Shown here: positions 1 to 5,207 of the stretch, piece by piece | Layout: the number at the start of each line of letters is the position of its first letter | Numbering within the stretch: position 1 is the stretch's first letter | Source: a virus | Virus record (IMG/VR): IMGVR_UViG_3300045988_050141 | Span: 1-5,207 of that record | Length of the DNA: 5,207 nucleotides | Strand: one strand, 5' to 3' | The notes under the pieces: model-generated | Database searches by the model: none | The model's input: the letters and a program-made list of their open reading frames with translations, nothing else | Told to the model about the DNA's origin: nothing | Position numbers and translations under genes: made by a program

Positions 1-99
1 ATTTTTTTTGAAAGGAGATGTTTTTATATGAATAAGTGGTTTACTGCCCTCGTAACGGCTATTGCAGCCGCCGCAAGCTACCTTCTCGGTATCAATAAC
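1..99. repeat. Terminal redundancy: 1..99 is identical to 5109..5207. It marks a circular genome of about 5108 nt linearised with a 99-nt overlap.
   Basis: Direct comparison of the first and last ~100 nt (attttttttgaaaggagatgtttttatatgaataagtgg...ggtatcaataac) shows exact identity. Confidence 0.95.
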
Positions 100-108
100 C
101 CTCTTTAA
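28..108 (+). CDS. Small hydrophobic single-pass membrane peptide, 26 aa, MNKWFTALVTAIAAAASYLLGINNPL. Candidate lysis or membrane-associated accessory protein. A truncated second copy begins at 5136.
   Basis: ATG at 28 is preceded by AGGAG (13-17) with a 10-nt spacer. The product has a K-containing N-terminus, an 18-residue hydrophobic core and a short polar tail. It uses TAA as its stop codon. Confidence 0.5.
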   Translation: MNKWFTALVTAIAAAASYLLGINNPL

Positions 109-126
109 GAAAGGAGATTTTTAATC

Positions 127-246
127 ATGGCACAACGTAAAAAAGTTTCTCGTAAAGGCTCTCGCCGATTGTTTACTGCTGTCGGTAACCGTACCCAGTC
201 TATTAATTTGCAACAGCCCCCGCATAGAGGAGGTTGGAGATTATGA
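127..246 (+). CDS. Small highly basic protein, 39 aa, MAQRKKVSRKGSRRLFTAVGNRTQSINLQQPPHRGGWRL. Likely the DNA-binding/packaging protein, a phiX174 J-like or gokushovirus ORF8-like analogue.
   Basis: AAGGAG (111-116) lies 10 nt upstream of ATG 127. The sequence is very rich in R/K. Its stop TGA (244-246) overlaps the VP3 start ATG (243-245) in an ATGA junction. Size and charge match Microviridae J/VP8-class proteins. Confidence 0.6.
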   Translation: MAQRKKVSRKGSRRLFTAVGNRTQSINLQQPPHRGGWRL

Positions 247-747: not shown

Positions 748-785
748 CCCGCATGGAGCCTACGTTTTCAGCTATTCCATGCGGG
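748..785 (+). other. Stable hairpin in the VP3-VP1 intergenic region. A 9-bp perfect stem cccgcatgg / ccatgcggg encloses a 20-nt loop.
   Basis: 748-756 is the reverse complement of 777-785. An A-rich tract (taaaataaaaaaaagg) follows. A nearby direct repeat ggagccta occurs at 701-708 and 756-763. Confidence 0.6.
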
Positions 786-2385: not shown

Positions 2386-3180
2386 ATGAGCTTTCTCGGA
2401 GATATTGCTGGCGATCTTGTCGGTGGTGTTCTTGGTTTTGCTGGTCAAAATAGTGCTAATTCTGCTAACGCCGCCGCTGCCCAAGCTGACAGAGATTTCC
2501 AACGTGAAGTATTACAAAACCGTCACCAGTGGGAAGCTGACGATTACGAAAAAGCAGGTTTTAATCGTATTCTTTCGGTTACTTCTTCTTCTGGTGGTAT
2601 TGGTTCTAATTCTTCTATCGCTGCCCAAAATGCTCTCGACCCTCTTGCTCGTGGCGTATCTTCTGCTGTTCAGACTAGACTTAGAAGTAAGGAACTTGAT
2701 GAACAAATAAACCTGATGCGTAGTCAGATTTTTAAAAATCATGCTGACGCAGATAAAGCGGACGCCGAATATGATCTCGCTAGGTCCCAGTCTAGTTATT
2801 ATAAGACTTTAGAAGATTATCAGGATATGCAGTCAATGGTTGCTGAACTTATGCTTCCATGGCAGGTTGAGCAGATGAAGCAAAATATTGTTAATTCCGC
2901 TAAAGTGTCTGATGCTCAGGTGGTCGAGCTTCTTGCTGGTGCTGGTGCTCATAGTGCCGTAGCCGAGGAAGCTCGTGAGCGTGCTCGTGGCTATCGCCGT
3001 GATAATGATGCTTTAGACAAGGTAGGTGGTGTTGGTAAGTTTTTTAATGACATTGGTGAATCTACCCTTGGAAAACGTGCTACTTCTTATGTCCGTGGAT
3101 TCCTGAGCGGTCTGCCTTCCTTTGATTGGAATCCGCAGAAGGAGTTTGAAAAATATCGCAAACTTTATACTGGTCGCTAA
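2386..3180 (+). CDS. VP2 minor capsid / DNA pilot protein (H-like), 264 aa.
   Basis: AAGGA (2372-2376) lies 9 nt upstream of ATG 2386, 4 nt after the VP1 stop. The N-terminus is glycine-rich and hydrophobic (MSFLGDIAGDLVGGVLGFAG). It is followed by Ala/Gln-rich predicted coiled-coil segments typical of Microviridae pilot proteins, in the usual position after VP1. Confidence 0.8.
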   Translation: MSFLGDIAGDLVGGVLGFAGQNSANSANAAAAQADRDFQREVLQNRHQWEADDYEKAGFNRILSVTSSSGGIGSNSSIAAQNALDPLARGVSSAVQTRLRSKELDEQINLMRSQIFKNHADADKADAEYDLARSQSSYYKTLEDYQDMQSMVAELMLPWQVEQMKQNIVNSAKVSDAQVVELLAGAGAHSAVAEEARERARGYRRDNDALDKVGGVGKFFNDIGESTLGKRATSYVRGFLSGLPSFDWNPQKEFEKYRKLYTGR

Positions 3181-3207
3181 ATTGTCTTAAATTTGTCTAC
3201 AATTTTT
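3175..3207. repeat. 33-bp direct repeat copy 1 (cgctaaattgtcttaaatttgtctacaattttt). It overlaps the last two codons and stop of VP2.
   Basis: Exact 33-nt identity with 3275..3307, offset by exactly 100 bp. Confidence 0.9.
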
Positions 3208-3265
3208 TTACCTTAAGGTATACAATTTTTTTACCTTAAGGTAAAAAAATGTATACCTTAAGGTA
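3198..3265. repeat. Tandem and inverted repeat array. The 23-bp unit tacaatttttttaccttaaggta occurs twice in tandem (3198-3220, 3221-3243), followed by an inverted third unit (3244-3265, aaaaaatgta + taccttaaggta). It contains three copies of the perfect 12-bp palindrome TACCTTAAGGTA, at 3209-3220, 3232-3243 and 3254-3265.
   Basis: Read directly from the sequence. The palindrome centres are spaced 23 and 22 bp apart. The spacers tacaatttttt and aaaaaatgta are near reverse complements, so 3209-3265 is a roughly 57-bp near-perfect dyad. Confidence 0.9.
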
Positions 3266-3274
3266 TTTGAAGGA

Positions 3275-3307
3275 CGCTAAATTGTCTTAAATTTGTCTAC
3301 AATTTTT
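3275..3307. repeat. 33-bp direct repeat copy 2.
   Basis: Exact identity to 3175..3207. Confidence 0.9.
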
Positions 3308-3318
3308 ATATCTTTTTG

Positions 3319-3351: not shown

Positions 3352-4335
3352 ATGTGTCAAAATCCTTTAACTGCTTGGAGAGTACCGCCCAAAACTAATA
3401 CTTTTGGTTATGCCCCTCAGGTAACTTTCGGCAAAATTAAAGGTCAGCTCATACGTTCACCTCGTTCTATTACTTTCCGCCGTTCGGAAGGCATTACTGG
3501 TTCTGAAATGAAAATTCCTTGCGGTAAATGCCCTGAATGTCGTGCTGCTCTGCGCCGCGATTGGTCACACCGTATTATGCAGGAGGCTTCTTGTTTTGAT
3601 AAAGTTTCTTTTCTTACTCTTACTTACAACAATGATAATTTACCCCTTTCTGATTCTGGTGTTCCGACTTTGCGCAAGGAACATGTACAGTTATTTCTTA
3701 AACGTTTACGCAAAGCTCTTGGTCTTAGAAATACTCTTATTCGGTTTTATTGTGTTGGTGAATACGGTAGTAGATATTCTCGCCCTCACTATCATTTAAT
3801 TATTTTTGGAGAGGACTTCAGCTATGATAGGAAAATTATTCGCAAGAACGGACGTTTTTATGATTATGTGTCTTGTACTATTTCTCGTCTGTGGCCTTTT
3901 GGATTTCATACCGTTAATGATTTTTCTAATGCTACCGCTCGTTACATTTCTGGTTATGTTACTAAAAAGCTTGTTGATACGGAGCTTCCTAAAGGGATTA
4001 CTCCTAGCTTTCATACTATGTCTTTGCGGCGTGGTATTGGTTATACTTGGTTTGAAAGAAATTGGCGTAATGTTTTTTCTCCTTCCTCTGTGCGTATGGT
4101 TATCTCTTCAGATCTCACTCATCATTATACTGCTCGGGTGCCTCTTGCTTATTGGAACTGGCTTAAGTCTATAGATGAAGTGTTATATAAAGCTTGCAAA
4201 TTATATTGCTATCGTATGGCTATGTCTATTCCCGAACGGTCTTTAACTGAGGCTGTCCGTGTTAATAGAGTATTACAAAATCAAATAAGAAAGGAGTGTC
4301 GTCCATTTGAAACTGCCAGACCGCGTACCTCTTGA
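3352..4335 (+). CDS. VP4 replication initiation protein, an HUH rolling-circle endonuclease (phiX174 A-like), 327 aa.
   Basis: GAGGTG SD lies 6 nt upstream of ATG 3352; the track start 3316 is an upstream TTG. It has an N-terminal Cys cluster (CGKCPEC), motif I (FLTLTY), motif II HUH (PHYHLIIFG) and motif III with dual catalytic Tyr (YISGYVTKK), the canonical Microviridae Rep architecture. Confidence 0.92.
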   Translation: MCQNPLTAWRVPPKTNTFGYAPQVTFGKIKGQLIRSPRSITFRRSEGITGSEMKIPCGKCPECRAALRRDWSHRIMQEASCFDKVSFLTLTYNNDNLPLSDSGVPTLRKEHVQLFLKRLRKALGLRNTLIRFYCVGEYGSRYSRPHYHLIIFGEDFSYDRKIIRKNGRFYDYVSCTISRLWPFGFHTVNDFSNATARYISGYVTKKLVDTELPKGITPSFHTMSLRRGIGYTWFERNWRNVFSPSSVRMVISSDLTHHYTARVPLAYWNWLKSIDEVLYKACKLYCYRMAMSIPERSLTEAVRVNRVLQNQIRKECRPFETARPRTS

Positions 4336-4340
4336 TATTA
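4331..4340 (+). other. Candidate origin nick-site core, cttgatatta, a 10/10 match to the phiX174 ori core CTTG^ATATTA. It spans the rep stop codon TGA at 4333-4335.
   Basis: Exact decamer identity to the phiX174 gene-A-protein recognition/cleavage sequence (CAACTTG^ATATTAATAAC). The expected chance occurrence of a given 10-mer on both strands of a 5.1-kb genome is about 0.01. Confidence 0.4.
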
Positions 4341-4408
4341 CCGTATTTCCTTTCGGCGACATGAAATCGGCTCAGATGTACCGTGAAAATCGTTGTATGA
4401 GTGATAGA

Positions 4409-4420
4409 GATAGTACTATC
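4409..4420. repeat. Perfect 12-bp palindrome GATAGTACTATC in the rep-downstream intergenic region.
   Basis: The sequence is self-reverse-complementary. It lies about 50 nt upstream of ORF 4473. Confidence 0.8.
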
Positions 4421-4472
4421 ATTTCTGCTTTTGGCTGTTATTTTTTATGTACATGGGCTATAAGGTATTAGC

Positions 4473-4730
4473 ATGAATTTCGTATTTATGCTTTCTTTGC
4501 TTTTTCCCAGCTTGCAGTTTGAACGCATTGAGTCCTCGGAATATGTTCGTGTTTCCTTCGTTGTTCACAATTTCCGTCTTTTTTTGGACATACCCGTCGG
4601 ACTTGCTCACGAACGTGTTGAGCTTAACGAGCGTAACGTATCTGTCGTGCTGGATAGGCTTGTCGCCTGCCTTCGTGCGTGTGCTAGCCCAGGCATCGCC
4701 CCCCTTGTTAGGTTATTTTTTGGTAAGTAA
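4473..4730 (+). CDS. Hypothetical protein, 85 aa. Coding status is uncertain. It lies in a locally GC-richer segment with a weak RBS.
   Basis: It is an ATG-initiated ORF whose codon third positions are closer to the phage's T/C-ending preference than those of the overlapping 4519 frame. Only AAGG lies 7 nt upstream, and it has no recognisable motifs. Confidence 0.3.
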   Translation: MNFVFMLSLLFPSLQFERIESSEYVRVSFVVHNFRLFLDIPVGLAHERVELNERNVSVVLDRLVACLRACASPGIAPLVRLFFGK

Positions 4731-4754: not shown

Positions 4755-5063
4755 ATGTCTAAAAGTCTGTTGTTTGGTGTTTATGATAAAGTTGCTCAAA
4801 AATATATTGGTCTTGAAGTGAGTGATAGCGAAGCCCTTTGTAAACGCTCTTTCTATAATCGTGTTCGTATGGCTCCTCAATCCCCTTTGGCTACCTATCC
4901 TAATGATTTTTCACTTATGCTTCTTGGAGAGCTTGACGATTCCACTGGTCGTGTAGATTCTTACGAAGTCCCTGTTACTGTATGTGCTAGTGCTATCCCT
5001 CCTGAAGTTTTCTCGGCCGCCGCTGAAGCTGTCGCAGATGATGCCCGTAATCGTTCTAACTAA
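4755..5063 (+). CDS. Small conserved nonstructural protein, 102 aa, tentatively VP5-like. MSKSLLFGVYDKVAQKY...FYNRV...YPNDFSLMLLGELDDSTGRVDSYEVPV.
   Basis: AGGAG (4741-4745) lies 9 nt upstream of ATG 4755; the track start 4746 is an upstream TTG. It uses a TAA stop. The F.VYDK.A..Y ... F.L..LGE.DD.TG pattern recalls a small protein family recurrent in gokushovirus genomes. This family assignment is from memory, not verified. Confidence 0.65.
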   Translation: MSKSLLFGVYDKVAQKYIGLEVSDSEALCKRSFYNRVRMAPQSPLATYPNDFSLMLLGELDDSTGRVDSYEVPVTVCASAIPPEVFSAAAEAVADDARNRSN

Positions 5064-5066
5064 TTA

Positions 5067-5095
5067 TTGATTTTCCCCCTCTATTGCCTTATAAT
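5067..5095 (+). promoter_or_regulatory. Sigma70-like promoter: TTGATT (5067-5072), a 17-bp spacer, then TATAAT (5090-5095). It would drive the peptide/J/VP3/VP1 gene block across the circular junction.
   Basis: Perfect -10 consensus with optimal 17-bp spacing to a 4/6 -35 match. The predicted transcription start is about 5102, upstream of the AGGAG SD and ATG of the 26-aa ORF. Confidence 0.45.
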
Positions 5096-5117
5096 TGGCT
5101 TTAGAGGGATTTTTTTT
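5077..5117 (+). terminator. Rho-independent terminator-like hairpin followed by a T8 run, downstream of the VP5-like gene.
   Basis: ccctcta (5077-5083) pairs with tagaggg (5102-5108) as a 7-bp stem. An inner gcc/ggc pairing is present. The hairpin is followed by A then tttttttt (5110-5117). Confidence 0.45.
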
Positions 5118-5207
5118 GAAAGGAGATGTTTTTATATGAATAAGTGGTTTACTGCCCTCGTAACGGCTATTGCAGCCGCCGCAAGCTACCTTCTCGGTAT
5201 CAATAAC

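What the first reader, a model, noticed from the sequence alone, without database searches (positions are those of the whole stretch)
28..108. 26-aa single-pass transmembrane peptide with a strong SD, a candidate lysis or membrane effector
Gokushoviruses have no homologue of the phiX174 E lysis gene, and their lysis mechanism is poorly defined. This ORF has an optimal AGGAG spaced 10 nt from its ATG. It encodes MNKW-[18 hydrophobic residues]-NNPL, a classic short positively charged N-terminus plus one TM helix. It is the first gene downstream of a consensus promoter. It resembles the minimal single-gene-lysis (Sgl) proteins of small phages in size and shape.
Basis: partly seen in the sequence, partly recalled or inferred. 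Interest (0 to 1): 0.7.

Follow-up and report, generated by a model that had tools for sequence, protein, structure and literature searches.

The report
Conserved tiny membrane-peptide gene in gokushoviruses
A 26-codon gene that annotation pipelines miss is among the most strictly conserved genes in a group of gut microviruses, including prophages of Phascolarctobacterium; it encodes one membrane-type helix and is a good but untested candidate for how these phages lyse their host.

Summary
ORF 28-108 encodes MNKWFTALVTAIAAAASYLLGINNPL, AGGAG lies 10 nt upstream, and a TTGATT-17-TATAAT promoter-like site lies 40 nt upstream in this circular 5108-nt gokushovirus.

It is a real gene. Homologues of 25-28 aa occur in 11 lineages, all unannotated under the match in GenBank. 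Each has its own SD, and nearly all sit directly upstream of the J-like VP8 gene, whichever core gene follows. Window versus a prophage lineage (VP4 34%, VP1 ~50% identical) shows 15 nucleotide differences in codons 2-21 and no amino-acid change. One helix face is invariantly small or polar. Peptide type (A or B) does not follow the phage backbone, which points to a host partner.

One type-A lineage is a prophage flanked by Phascolarctobacterium faecium genes. No member genome has a recognisable lysis enzyme, and this is the only unassigned ORF they all share.

The lysis role remains inference (about 0.4). The family is absent from EC6098, Chp2, phiMH2K and a large aquatic clade, its conservation is unlike known Sgls, and type B falls below the classical TM threshold.

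Verdict: real, new, lineage-restricted micro-gene, and a plausible single-gene lysis effector that can be tested in a culturable host.

The parts
28..108 (+). ORF26 (the 'NKW peptide' gene, type A): 26 codons plus TAA, encoding MNKWFTALVTAIAAAASYLLGINNPL
   Evidence: It is intact in all relatives. Variable sites by codon position in the close clade are 4/4/13. Window versus L009, codons 2-21: pS 0.91 and no amino-acid change.
11..17 (+). Shine-Dalgarno AAAGGAG of ORF26, 10 nt before the ATG
   Evidence: Every family member has a GGAG, GAGG or GGTG motif upstream of its start.
5136..5207 (+). Second, truncated copy of ORF26, produced by the 99-nt terminal redundancy of the assembled circle (5109-5207 = 1-99)
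5067..5095 (+). Promoter-like site: TTGATT (-35), 17-nt spacer, TATAAT (-10)
   Evidence: The hexamers are largely kept in the close clade. L007 has TTGACA-18-TATAAT at the same place.
5077..5117 (+). Hairpin (arms CCCTCTA 5077-5083 and TAGAGGG 5102-5108, with the -10 box in the loop) followed by T8: terminator-like for read-through from ORF5. A transcript started at the loop promoter would lack the 5' arm.
   Evidence: MFE -20.4 kcal/mol, z = -3.1. L007, L006 and L100 also have a strong hairpin at this position, built from different sequence.
127..246 (+). VP8-like, J-like basic DNA-binding protein (39 aa), the conserved downstream partner gene; its SD (110-116) begins 2 nt after the ORF26 stop
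   Evidence: phrog_10695. The small-ORF/VP8 pairing holds in 10 of 11 lineages.

Best explanation
ORF26 is a genuine, unannotated gene for a 26-aa single-helix membrane peptide. It belongs to a family of 25-28-aa peptides with the pattern M-N-K-W-[FW]-T-A-x3-[AGS]-[IL]-[AS]-[AS]-x2-[SG]-x-[LVI]-L-G. The family is found in a subset of gut gokushoviruses, including prophages of Phascolarctobacterium faecium. Shown: it is protein-coding, under very strong purifying selection, has its own SD, is linked to the late J-like gene VP8, is predicted to be helical, and has one invariant small or polar face. Inferred: it is made together with the structural proteins and inserts in the cytoplasmic membrane with Lys3 and Trp4 at the inner interface. 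Through its small-residue face (T6, A7, T/Q/E10, A11, A13, A14, S/G17, G21) it packs against a conserved host membrane component, or against itself. The proposed result is host lysis in the manner of single-gene lysis proteins: blocking a membrane step of lipid II supply such as MraY or MurJ, or making a membrane lesion that sets off autolysis.
For: Coding and selection: variable sites by codon position are 4/4/13 in the close clade. Window versus L009 has 15 nucleotide differences in 14 of codons 2-21 with no amino-acid change (pS 0.91). With about 25% synonymous sites, that would occur by chance at roughly 1e-9 (my calculation). The family profile separates members (at least 49.8 bits) from everything else (at most 16.9 bits). 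Helix: AlphaFold2 predicts a single helix with core pLDDT ~82, and the helical wheel shows a small/polar face and a bulky face. Host-directed: peptide type A is shared by two backbones that are only 50% (VP1), 34% (VP4) and 46% (VP8) identical, and the prophage backbone is closer to type-B phages at 64-67% VP1 identity. Host: prophage flanks cluster with P. faecium proteins. Lysis-specific support: ORF26 meets the sgl screening criteria. No lysis enzyme is recognisable in any member genome, and this is the only unassigned ORF common to all of them. It sits immediately upstream of the J-like gene among late genes, as E does in phiX174 (established knowledge). Five of 11 lineages use weak starts, TTG or ATT, as expected for a product that must be dosed.
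Against: No functional data exist. The family is absent from EC6098, Chp2, phiMH2K, SpV4 and about 45 aquatic gokushoviruses. These phages lyse or persist without it, so another mechanism exists in the subfamily. Known Sgls evolve fast; closely related phages share only 38-47% identity (PMC7693330), whereas this peptide is nearly frozen. In that screen only 33 of 293 candidates had a phenotype, and 178 with a TMD had none. Type-B members have Q or E at position 10 and Kyte-Doolittle means of 1.02-1.46, below the TM threshold. The window also has two other unassigned real genes, orf54 and orf85.
Confidence: 0.4

Rival explanations
1. It is a host-directed membrane peptide with a non-lytic role. 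For example, it could mediate superinfection exclusion by blocking the VP2 DNA-delivery step of incoming microviruses at the inner membrane, or modulate a host membrane protein during lysogeny or carrier state.
For: It is present in integrated prophages at a fixed chromosomal site in at least 7 contigs. Gokushovirus carrier cultures are immune to reinfection by an unknown mechanism (10.1101/743518). The strict conservation and host-matched rather than phage-matched distribution fit any specific host target. Gokushoviruses without the peptide still complete their cycle.
Against: It always lies on the phage sense strand among late structural genes, with no separate lysogeny-type promoter seen in the prophage architecture. 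EC6098, which shows the immunity phenotype, lacks the gene. Its tight pairing with VP8 suggests late co-expression.
Confidence: 0.3
2. It is a phage assembly, packaging or virion cofactor that acts with VP8 or the capsid interior. In this reading it is an amphipathic helix buried in a protein interface, not a membrane protein.
For: It is adjacent to VP8 in 10 of 11 lineages. Type-B hydrophobicity is below the TM threshold, with Q or E at position 10. An Ala/Gly/Ser face can equally pack against a protein, and both helix faces are conserved within type A.
Against: The peptide does not co-diverge with any phage protein: it is identical over residues 1-21 where VP8 is 46%, VP1 ~50%, VP2 ~35% and VP4 34% identical. 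In L096 it precedes VP2 and no VP8 was detected. Most gokushoviruses assemble without it.
Confidence: 0.12
3. It is a regulatory upstream ORF whose translation controls VP8 expression through coupling or unmasking of the VP8 SD, so the peptide sequence itself would not matter.
For: The VP8 SD starts 2 nt after the ORF26 stop, and the two genes are almost always adjacent.
Against: The amino-acid sequence is conserved at saturating synonymous divergence, which a sequence-independent uORF would not show. The gap and frame relative to VP8 vary: 8, 15, 18, 19 and 20 nt. VP8 has its own strong SD.
Confidence: 0.05
4. It is a chance ORF or a non-coding conserved element, such as part of an origin or terminator region.
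For: The window has many small ORFs. The first 8 codons are invariant at the nucleotide level within the close clade, and the ORF lies next to a conserved hairpin.
Against: Variation is concentrated at third codon positions, while the upstream intergenic control shows 3/4/2. Both other frames carry stops. The ORF, start, stop and SD are kept in 11 lineages whose DNA no longer aligns: blastn finds no hit to L006 or L100, yet their peptides score 64-66 bits.
Confidence: 0.02

Closest known systems
phiX174 lysis protein E (Bullavirinae; MraY inhibitor)
   Same: A microvirus-encoded small protein whose active part is a single transmembrane helix, encoded immediately upstream of the J-type DNA-binding protein gene among late genes. 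No endolysin is present in the genome.
   Different: There is no sequence similarity (no Pfam-A hit). E is 91 aa with a cytoplasmic C-terminal domain and is overprinted inside scaffold gene D (established knowledge). ORF26 is 26 aa, has no soluble domain and stands alone in intergenic space with its own SD. The target and any lytic activity are unknown.
Single-gene lysis proteins of ssRNA phages (for example Lys of phage M, a MurJ inhibitor, MS2 L, and the metagenomic Sgls of PMC7693330)
   Same: Very small size, an SD plus a single predicted TMD, no enzymatic domain, and a phage with a tiny genome and no holin-endolysin pair. ORF26 meets all three screening criteria.
   Different: ORF26 comes from a different virus realm. 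Those Sgls are mostly embedded in other genes and evolve quickly (38-47% identity between close relatives). ORF26 is free-standing and almost invariant across phages whose core proteins are 34-50% identical. It is shorter than the characterised examples (Lys of phage M is 37 aa, from my own knowledge).
Type I toxin peptides and other small membrane toxins (TisB 29 aa, DinQ 27 aa, ShoB 26 aa, Fst 33 aa; sizes from my own knowledge)
   Same: Same size class: a single hydrophobic or amphipathic helix with a polar stripe that could self-assemble and depolarise the membrane.
   Different: Those are chromosomal or plasmid toxin-antitoxin loci controlled by antisense RNA. No NCBIfam or Pfam toxin family matches ORF26. 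ORF26 is a phage late gene with a normal SD.
Holins and pinholins
   Same: A phage-encoded membrane helix expressed late.
   Different: Holins are larger, usually have at least 2 TMDs or a highly charged C-terminal tail, and work with an endolysin. ORF26 has a 4-7-residue, mostly uncharged tail, and no endolysin or peptidase is found in any member genome.
phiMH2K OrfN (annotated as 'similar to phiX174 E and K') and an unannotated 26-aa ORF upstream of the phiMH2K J-like gene
   Same: These are gokushovirus small hydrophobic ORFs of unknown function. The 26-aa ORF (NC_002643 3392-3472, AAGGAG SD) occupies the same position relative to the J-like gene.
   Different: Neither shows sequence similarity to the NKW family. 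OrfN is overprinted in the replication gene. Neither has been shown to be functional or conserved.

Membership tests
phiX174 E lysis protein family | Detectable sequence similarity to protein E | tested here: not met
   No Pfam-A family at E <= 0.1 and no PHROG
phiX174 E lysis protein family | Gene overprinted in another frame inside the scaffolding gene | tested here: not met
   ORF26 lies in intergenic space between ORF5 and VP8 and overlaps no gene
phiX174 E lysis protein family | N-terminal TMD followed by a cytoplasmic C-terminal domain of about 55 aa; inhibits MraY | tested here: not met
   The whole product is 26 aa with no soluble domain. MraY inhibition cannot be tested with these tools.
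Single-gene lysis (Sgl) candidate, operational criteria of PMC7693330 | ORF of at least 25 codons | tested here: met
   26 codons; family members have 25-28
Single-gene lysis (Sgl) candidate, operational criteria of PMC7693330 | Legitimate Shine-Dalgarno sequence | tested here: met
   AAAGGAG at 11-17; an SD-like motif occurs in all members
Single-gene lysis (Sgl) candidate, operational criteria of PMC7693330 | Predicted transmembrane domain | tested here: inconclusive
   Type A Kyte-Doolittle 19-residue mean is 1.52-1.79 (window 1.76, above 1.6); type B is 1.02-1.46. AlphaFold2 predicts a helix. TMHMM and DeepTMHMM were not available.
Single-gene lysis (Sgl) protein | Expression alone causes host lysis or growth arrest | not testable with these tools
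   Needs expression in a Negativicute host or a surrogate
Holin | Charged hydrophilic C-terminal tail and a partner endolysin gene | tested here: not met
   The tail is INNPL with no charge. No endolysin or peptidase is found in the window or in other member genomes.
Type I toxin peptide | Match to a known toxin family; antisense-RNA-controlled toxin-antitoxin locus | tested here: not met
   No NCBIfam or Pfam hit at E <= 10 / 0.1. Antisense RNA was not examined.
Secreted pro-peptide or lipoprotein signal sequence | Conserved AxA signal-peptidase site or a lipobox with an invariant Cys | tested here: not met
   Position 16 is A, C, I or V; no lipobox or AxA motif is conserved across types, and the C-terminal tails vary
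Gokushovirus-type microvirus (identity of the window) | VP1 (Phage_F), VP3 (Chlamy_scaf), VP4 Rep, ORF5 and a VP8-like gene, all on one strand of a circular genome of about 5 kb | tested here: met
   the best GenBank VP1 matches are gokushoviruses at 50-53% identity

The most novel reading that the evidence does not exclude
The NKW peptide is the lysis protein of a lineage of gut gokushoviruses. That would make it the first lysis gene identified in Gokushovirinae and the smallest free-standing single-gene lysis protein. It would consist of little more than one helix whose invariant small-residue face binds a conserved inner-membrane enzyme of cell-wall precursor supply in diderm Firmicutes (Negativicutes). 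Its two sequence types would be matched to hosts rather than to phage backbones, so it would behave as an exchangeable, host-specific lysis module.
Probability: 0.35. Interest if true: 0.8.

Novelty: new variant of a known kind. Interest (0 to 1): 0.62.

Why it matters
How gokushoviruses, the dominant microviruses in gut and aquatic viromes, release progeny is unknown outside the few lineages that acquired peptidases. This work turns a sequence-only guess into a defined, testable object. It is a conserved, unannotated micro-gene family with a known consensus and two sequence types. It comes with a likely host genus that can be cultured, and with natural prophages in which a clean nonsense mutation is possible because the ORF overlaps no other gene. 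If it is lytic, a 26-residue helix that disables a conserved envelope step in Negativicutes would be a minimal 'protein antibiotic' and a probe for that target. If it is not lytic, it is still a strongly constrained host-directed peptide that standard gene callers discard, since 81-87 nt is below the usual 90-nt cut-off (my own knowledge of Prodigal). That would mean microvirus gene catalogues systematically miss such genes.

Tried and rejected
1. My own error: the scans of genome contigs and metagenome contigs used a pattern with 17 Ns instead of 16, which put its 3' half out of frame. These scans say nothing about presence or absence of the family.
tblastn of the type-A peptide against GenBank phages found nothing, and megablast of the whole genome found nothing.
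3. The confirmation step of the VP8-alignment scan kept only 6 of 75 matches because the query is so short. I replaced it with a raw motif scan.
4. The apparent natural ORF26-VP8 fusion protein (P0032) is an artefact. The DNA has a TAG stop, and the tool reports that the locus does not translate to the query.
5. Programmed read-through into VP8 is rejected. The two genes share a frame in the window, but the gap is 8, 15, 18, 19 or 20 nt in different lineages.
6. A signal-peptide, lipoprotein or secreted-tail reading is rejected. No AxA site or lipobox is conserved, and the tails vary.
7. Overprinted hydrophobic ORFs inside VP3, VP1, VP2 and VP4 were considered as E-like rivals. They persist only in the close clade, and they break or lose their starts in L007, L006 and L100. 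They are also expected from 54-59% T at third codon positions. They are not excluded as genes, but nothing supports them.
8. Pfam, PHROGs and NCBIfam give no hit for any family member.
9. A literature search for 'microvirus' plus 'amurin' found no papers. The papers I read do not mention a small hydrophobic ORF next to VP8.
10. The single-microbe RNA-seq paper had no usable expression data for this gene.

Full report
**What the window is.** The 5207-base window is a circularly permuted assembly of a 5108-nt genome with a 99-nt terminal overlap. Its genes all lie on the + strand and are typical of gokushovirus-type microviruses:
- a 39-aa basic J-like protein, 127-246 (phrog_10695)
- VP3 scaffold, 243-689 (Chlamy_scaf)
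- VP1 capsid, 825-2381 (Phage_F, E = 3e-151)
- VP2 pilot, 2386-3180
- VP4 replication initiator, 3352-4335
- ORF5, 4755-5063

The nearest GenBank genomes are gut-derived gokushoviruses with only 50-53% VP1 identity. No nucleotide-level match exists in the phage collection.

**The observation.** ORF 28-108 reads MNKWFTALVTAIAAAASYLLGINNPL. AGGAG sits at 13-17, 10 nt before the ATG, which is the same motif and spacing as the next gene. A TTGATT-17-TATAAT site lies at 5067-5095. The description is accurate. The ORF alone would not be significant, for two reasons. The window has 66 ORFs of at least 20 aa. Also, 54-59% T at third codon positions makes the +1 frames of the core genes open and hydrophobic.

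**It is a real gene.**
- Five IMG/VR relatives (VP1 79-88% identical) all keep the ORF. Variable sites fall 4/4/13 by codon position, and 2/1/10 in codons 1-21, whereas the adjacent intergenic control gives 3/4/2.
- Motif scans and tblastn then recovered homologues in much more distant genomes: L007, the L009/L010/L011 group, L096 and L100 in IMG/VR, and six GenBank gut microviruses from dog, fox and pig. In those six the tool lists no annotated feature under the match.
- Every copy has its own SD-like motif. Starts are ATG in 6 lineages and TTG or ATT in 5.
- Window versus L009 has 15 nucleotide differences in 14 of codons 2-21 and no amino-acid change (pS 0.91), although VP4 is 34%, VP2 about 35% and VP1 50-57% identical.
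- A profile built from 13 distinct peptides scores members at 49.8 bits or more and everything else in 206 loci at 16.9 bits or less.
- No Pfam, PHROG or NCBIfam family matches. One extended form exists in nr only as 'hypothetical protein [Microviridae sp.]'.

**Anatomy of the family.** There are two sequence types:
- Type A: NKWFTALVTAIAAA[AC]SYLLG
- Type B: NKW[WF]TA[FL]F[QE]x[LI][AS][AS]F.[GS]S[VI]LG

M1, N2, K3, W4, T6, A7, L20 and G21 are invariant, and the 4-7-residue C-terminal tails vary. On a helical wheel, all always-small or always-polar positions (T6, A7, T/Q/E10, A11, A13, A14, S/G17, G21) fall within 120-280 degrees, and the always-bulky ones fall on the other half. AlphaFold2 predicts one continuous helix with pLDDT ~82 in the core. 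Type A reaches the classical Kyte-Doolittle TM threshold (1.52-1.79), but type B does not (1.02-1.46). So 'single-pass TM helix' is likely for the window's peptide but is not secure for the whole family.

**Context.**
- In 10 of 11 lineages the small ORF lies directly upstream of the J-like VP8 gene. This holds whether the pair precedes VP3 (window clade, L007, L006, L100) or VP4 (L009-L011, L114-L118). In L096 it precedes VP2.
- In the window's architecture the ORF always follows a strong hairpin. In the window and L007 the hairpin loop holds a -10 box and is preceded by a -35 box, so ORF26 plausibly opens the late transcription unit.
- The family is not general. About 45 aquatic ~4.3-kb gokushoviruses have VP3 directly upstream of VP8 and no such ORF. 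EC6098, Chp2, phiMH2K and SpV4 have no member.

**Host.** L011 and L010 are integrated prophages, not free genomes. The order VP1-VP2-small ORF-VP8-VP4-VP5-VP3 is flanked on one side by LexA and a methionine-gamma-lyase-family gene, and on the other by PduL and oxidoreductase genes. The two flank proteins I looked up belong to 90%-identity clusters named Phascolarctobacterium faecium. The same insertion occurs on at least 7 independent contigs of up to 36.7 kb. Published work already links gut Microviridae prophages mainly to Phascolarctobacterium (PMC12748750). These are diderm Firmicutes. That the window phage has the same or a related host is an inference from the identical peptide core.

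**What it most likely does.** Peptide type does not follow the phage backbone. The type-A prophage lineage is closest by VP1 to type-B phages (64-67% identical) and only ~50% identical to the type-A window clade, and both types occur in both genome architectures. The peptide is frozen while VP8, VP1, VP2 and VP4 have diverged to 34-57%. A partner that is itself a phage protein should have driven co-divergence. A conserved host component fits better.

No member genome encodes a recognisable lysis enzyme, and this is the only unassigned ORF that all of them share. ORF26 meets the published sgl screening criteria. It sits where E sits relative to J in phiX174. Nearly half the lineages use weak start codons. 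I therefore rank 'late-expressed, host-directed membrane peptide that causes lysis' first, at about 0.4.

Four points count against that ranking:
- The family is absent from other gokushoviruses.
- Known Sgls diverge rapidly.
- Such candidates have a low base rate of success: 33 of 293 in PMC7693330.
- Two other real unassigned genes exist in this window: orf54 at 4307-4471 and orf85 at 4473-4730.

The rivals are a non-lytic host-directed role such as superinfection exclusion (0.3), an assembly or packaging cofactor of VP8 (0.12), a regulatory uORF (0.05), and a chance ORF (0.02).

**Limits.** Two collection scans were wasted by my pattern error, so the host range and true abundance of the family are under-sampled. 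No TM predictor, multimer modelling or expression data were available. An apparent ORF26-VP8 fusion protein turned out to be a gene-calling artefact.

Noticed in passing
L010 5375-10073, L011 13-4410, L201-L206: These are integrated gokushovirus prophages (VP1-VP2-small ORF-VP8-VP4-VP5-VP3) at one chromosomal site, between lexA and a 516-aa gene. The flanks are Phascolarctobacterium faecium-like genes, and the insertion appears on at least 7 independent contigs. The phage-side junction lies between VP3 and VP1. att or dif sites were not examined.
   Followed up: partly
window 4307-4471: An unannotated 54-aa ORF (TTG start, overlapping the last 29 nt of VP4) is conserved in the close clade (87-96% aa identity) and in L007 (61%). 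Variable sites are 8/3/23 by codon position, so it is a real gene. It has no Pfam or PHROG hit and was not found in the other member genomes.
   Followed up: partly
window 4473-4730: orf85 starts 2 nt after orf54 ends and has a short hydrophobic N-terminus. Variable sites are 11/7/38 by codon position in the close clade, so it is probably coding, but the frame is broken in L007. It matches no family. It is a second candidate for any missing function, including lysis.
   Followed up: partly
window 3172-3314: The VP2-VP4 intergenic region holds a 43-nt direct repeat (3172-3214 and 3272-3314, 93% identical, 100 nt apart). The repeat brackets three copies of the palindrome TACCTTAAGGTA and long inverted repeats. 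The close relatives have a VP2-VP4 gap about 100 nt shorter, so this looks like a recent 100-nt duplication or insertion.
   Followed up: partly
window 748-785: A perfect 10-bp inverted repeat (CCCGCATGGA / TCCATGCGGG, 18-nt loop) followed by an A-rich run lies in the VP3-VP1 intergenic region. In the prophage lineage, this is the same gene interval where the genome is opened by integration.
   Followed up: no
L198 (phiMH2K, NC_002643) 3392-3472: An unannotated 26-aa hydrophobic ORF (MEIPVLDPTTLILALTLLILKSYPLF) with an AAGGAG SD lies in the gap just upstream of the annotated J-like gene (3516-3632). It is a positional analogue of ORF26 with no sequence similarity. Its conservation was not tested.
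   Followed up: no
L117 4704-4781 and L118 2833-2910 (MG945357, MG945367): This family member has no ATG, GTG or TTG at the conserved start position. An ATT codon sits 5 nt after a GAGGTGAT SD, and an in-frame GTG lies inside the SD itself. This suggests a non-canonical, weak start.
   Followed up: no
window, +1 frames of VP3, VP1, VP2 and VP4 (for example 250-336, 2405-2710, 3542-3799, 3806-4174): Long, very hydrophobic overprinted ORFs occur because third codon positions are 54-59% T. They are kept only among close relatives. They are a general trap when hunting E-like lysis genes in these genomes.
   Followed up: yes
L207 1355-1573 (protein P0032): A database protein that appears to fuse ORF26 to VP8 results from a gene call that read the TAG stop as Gln. 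The DNA has a normal TAG stop.
   Followed up: yes
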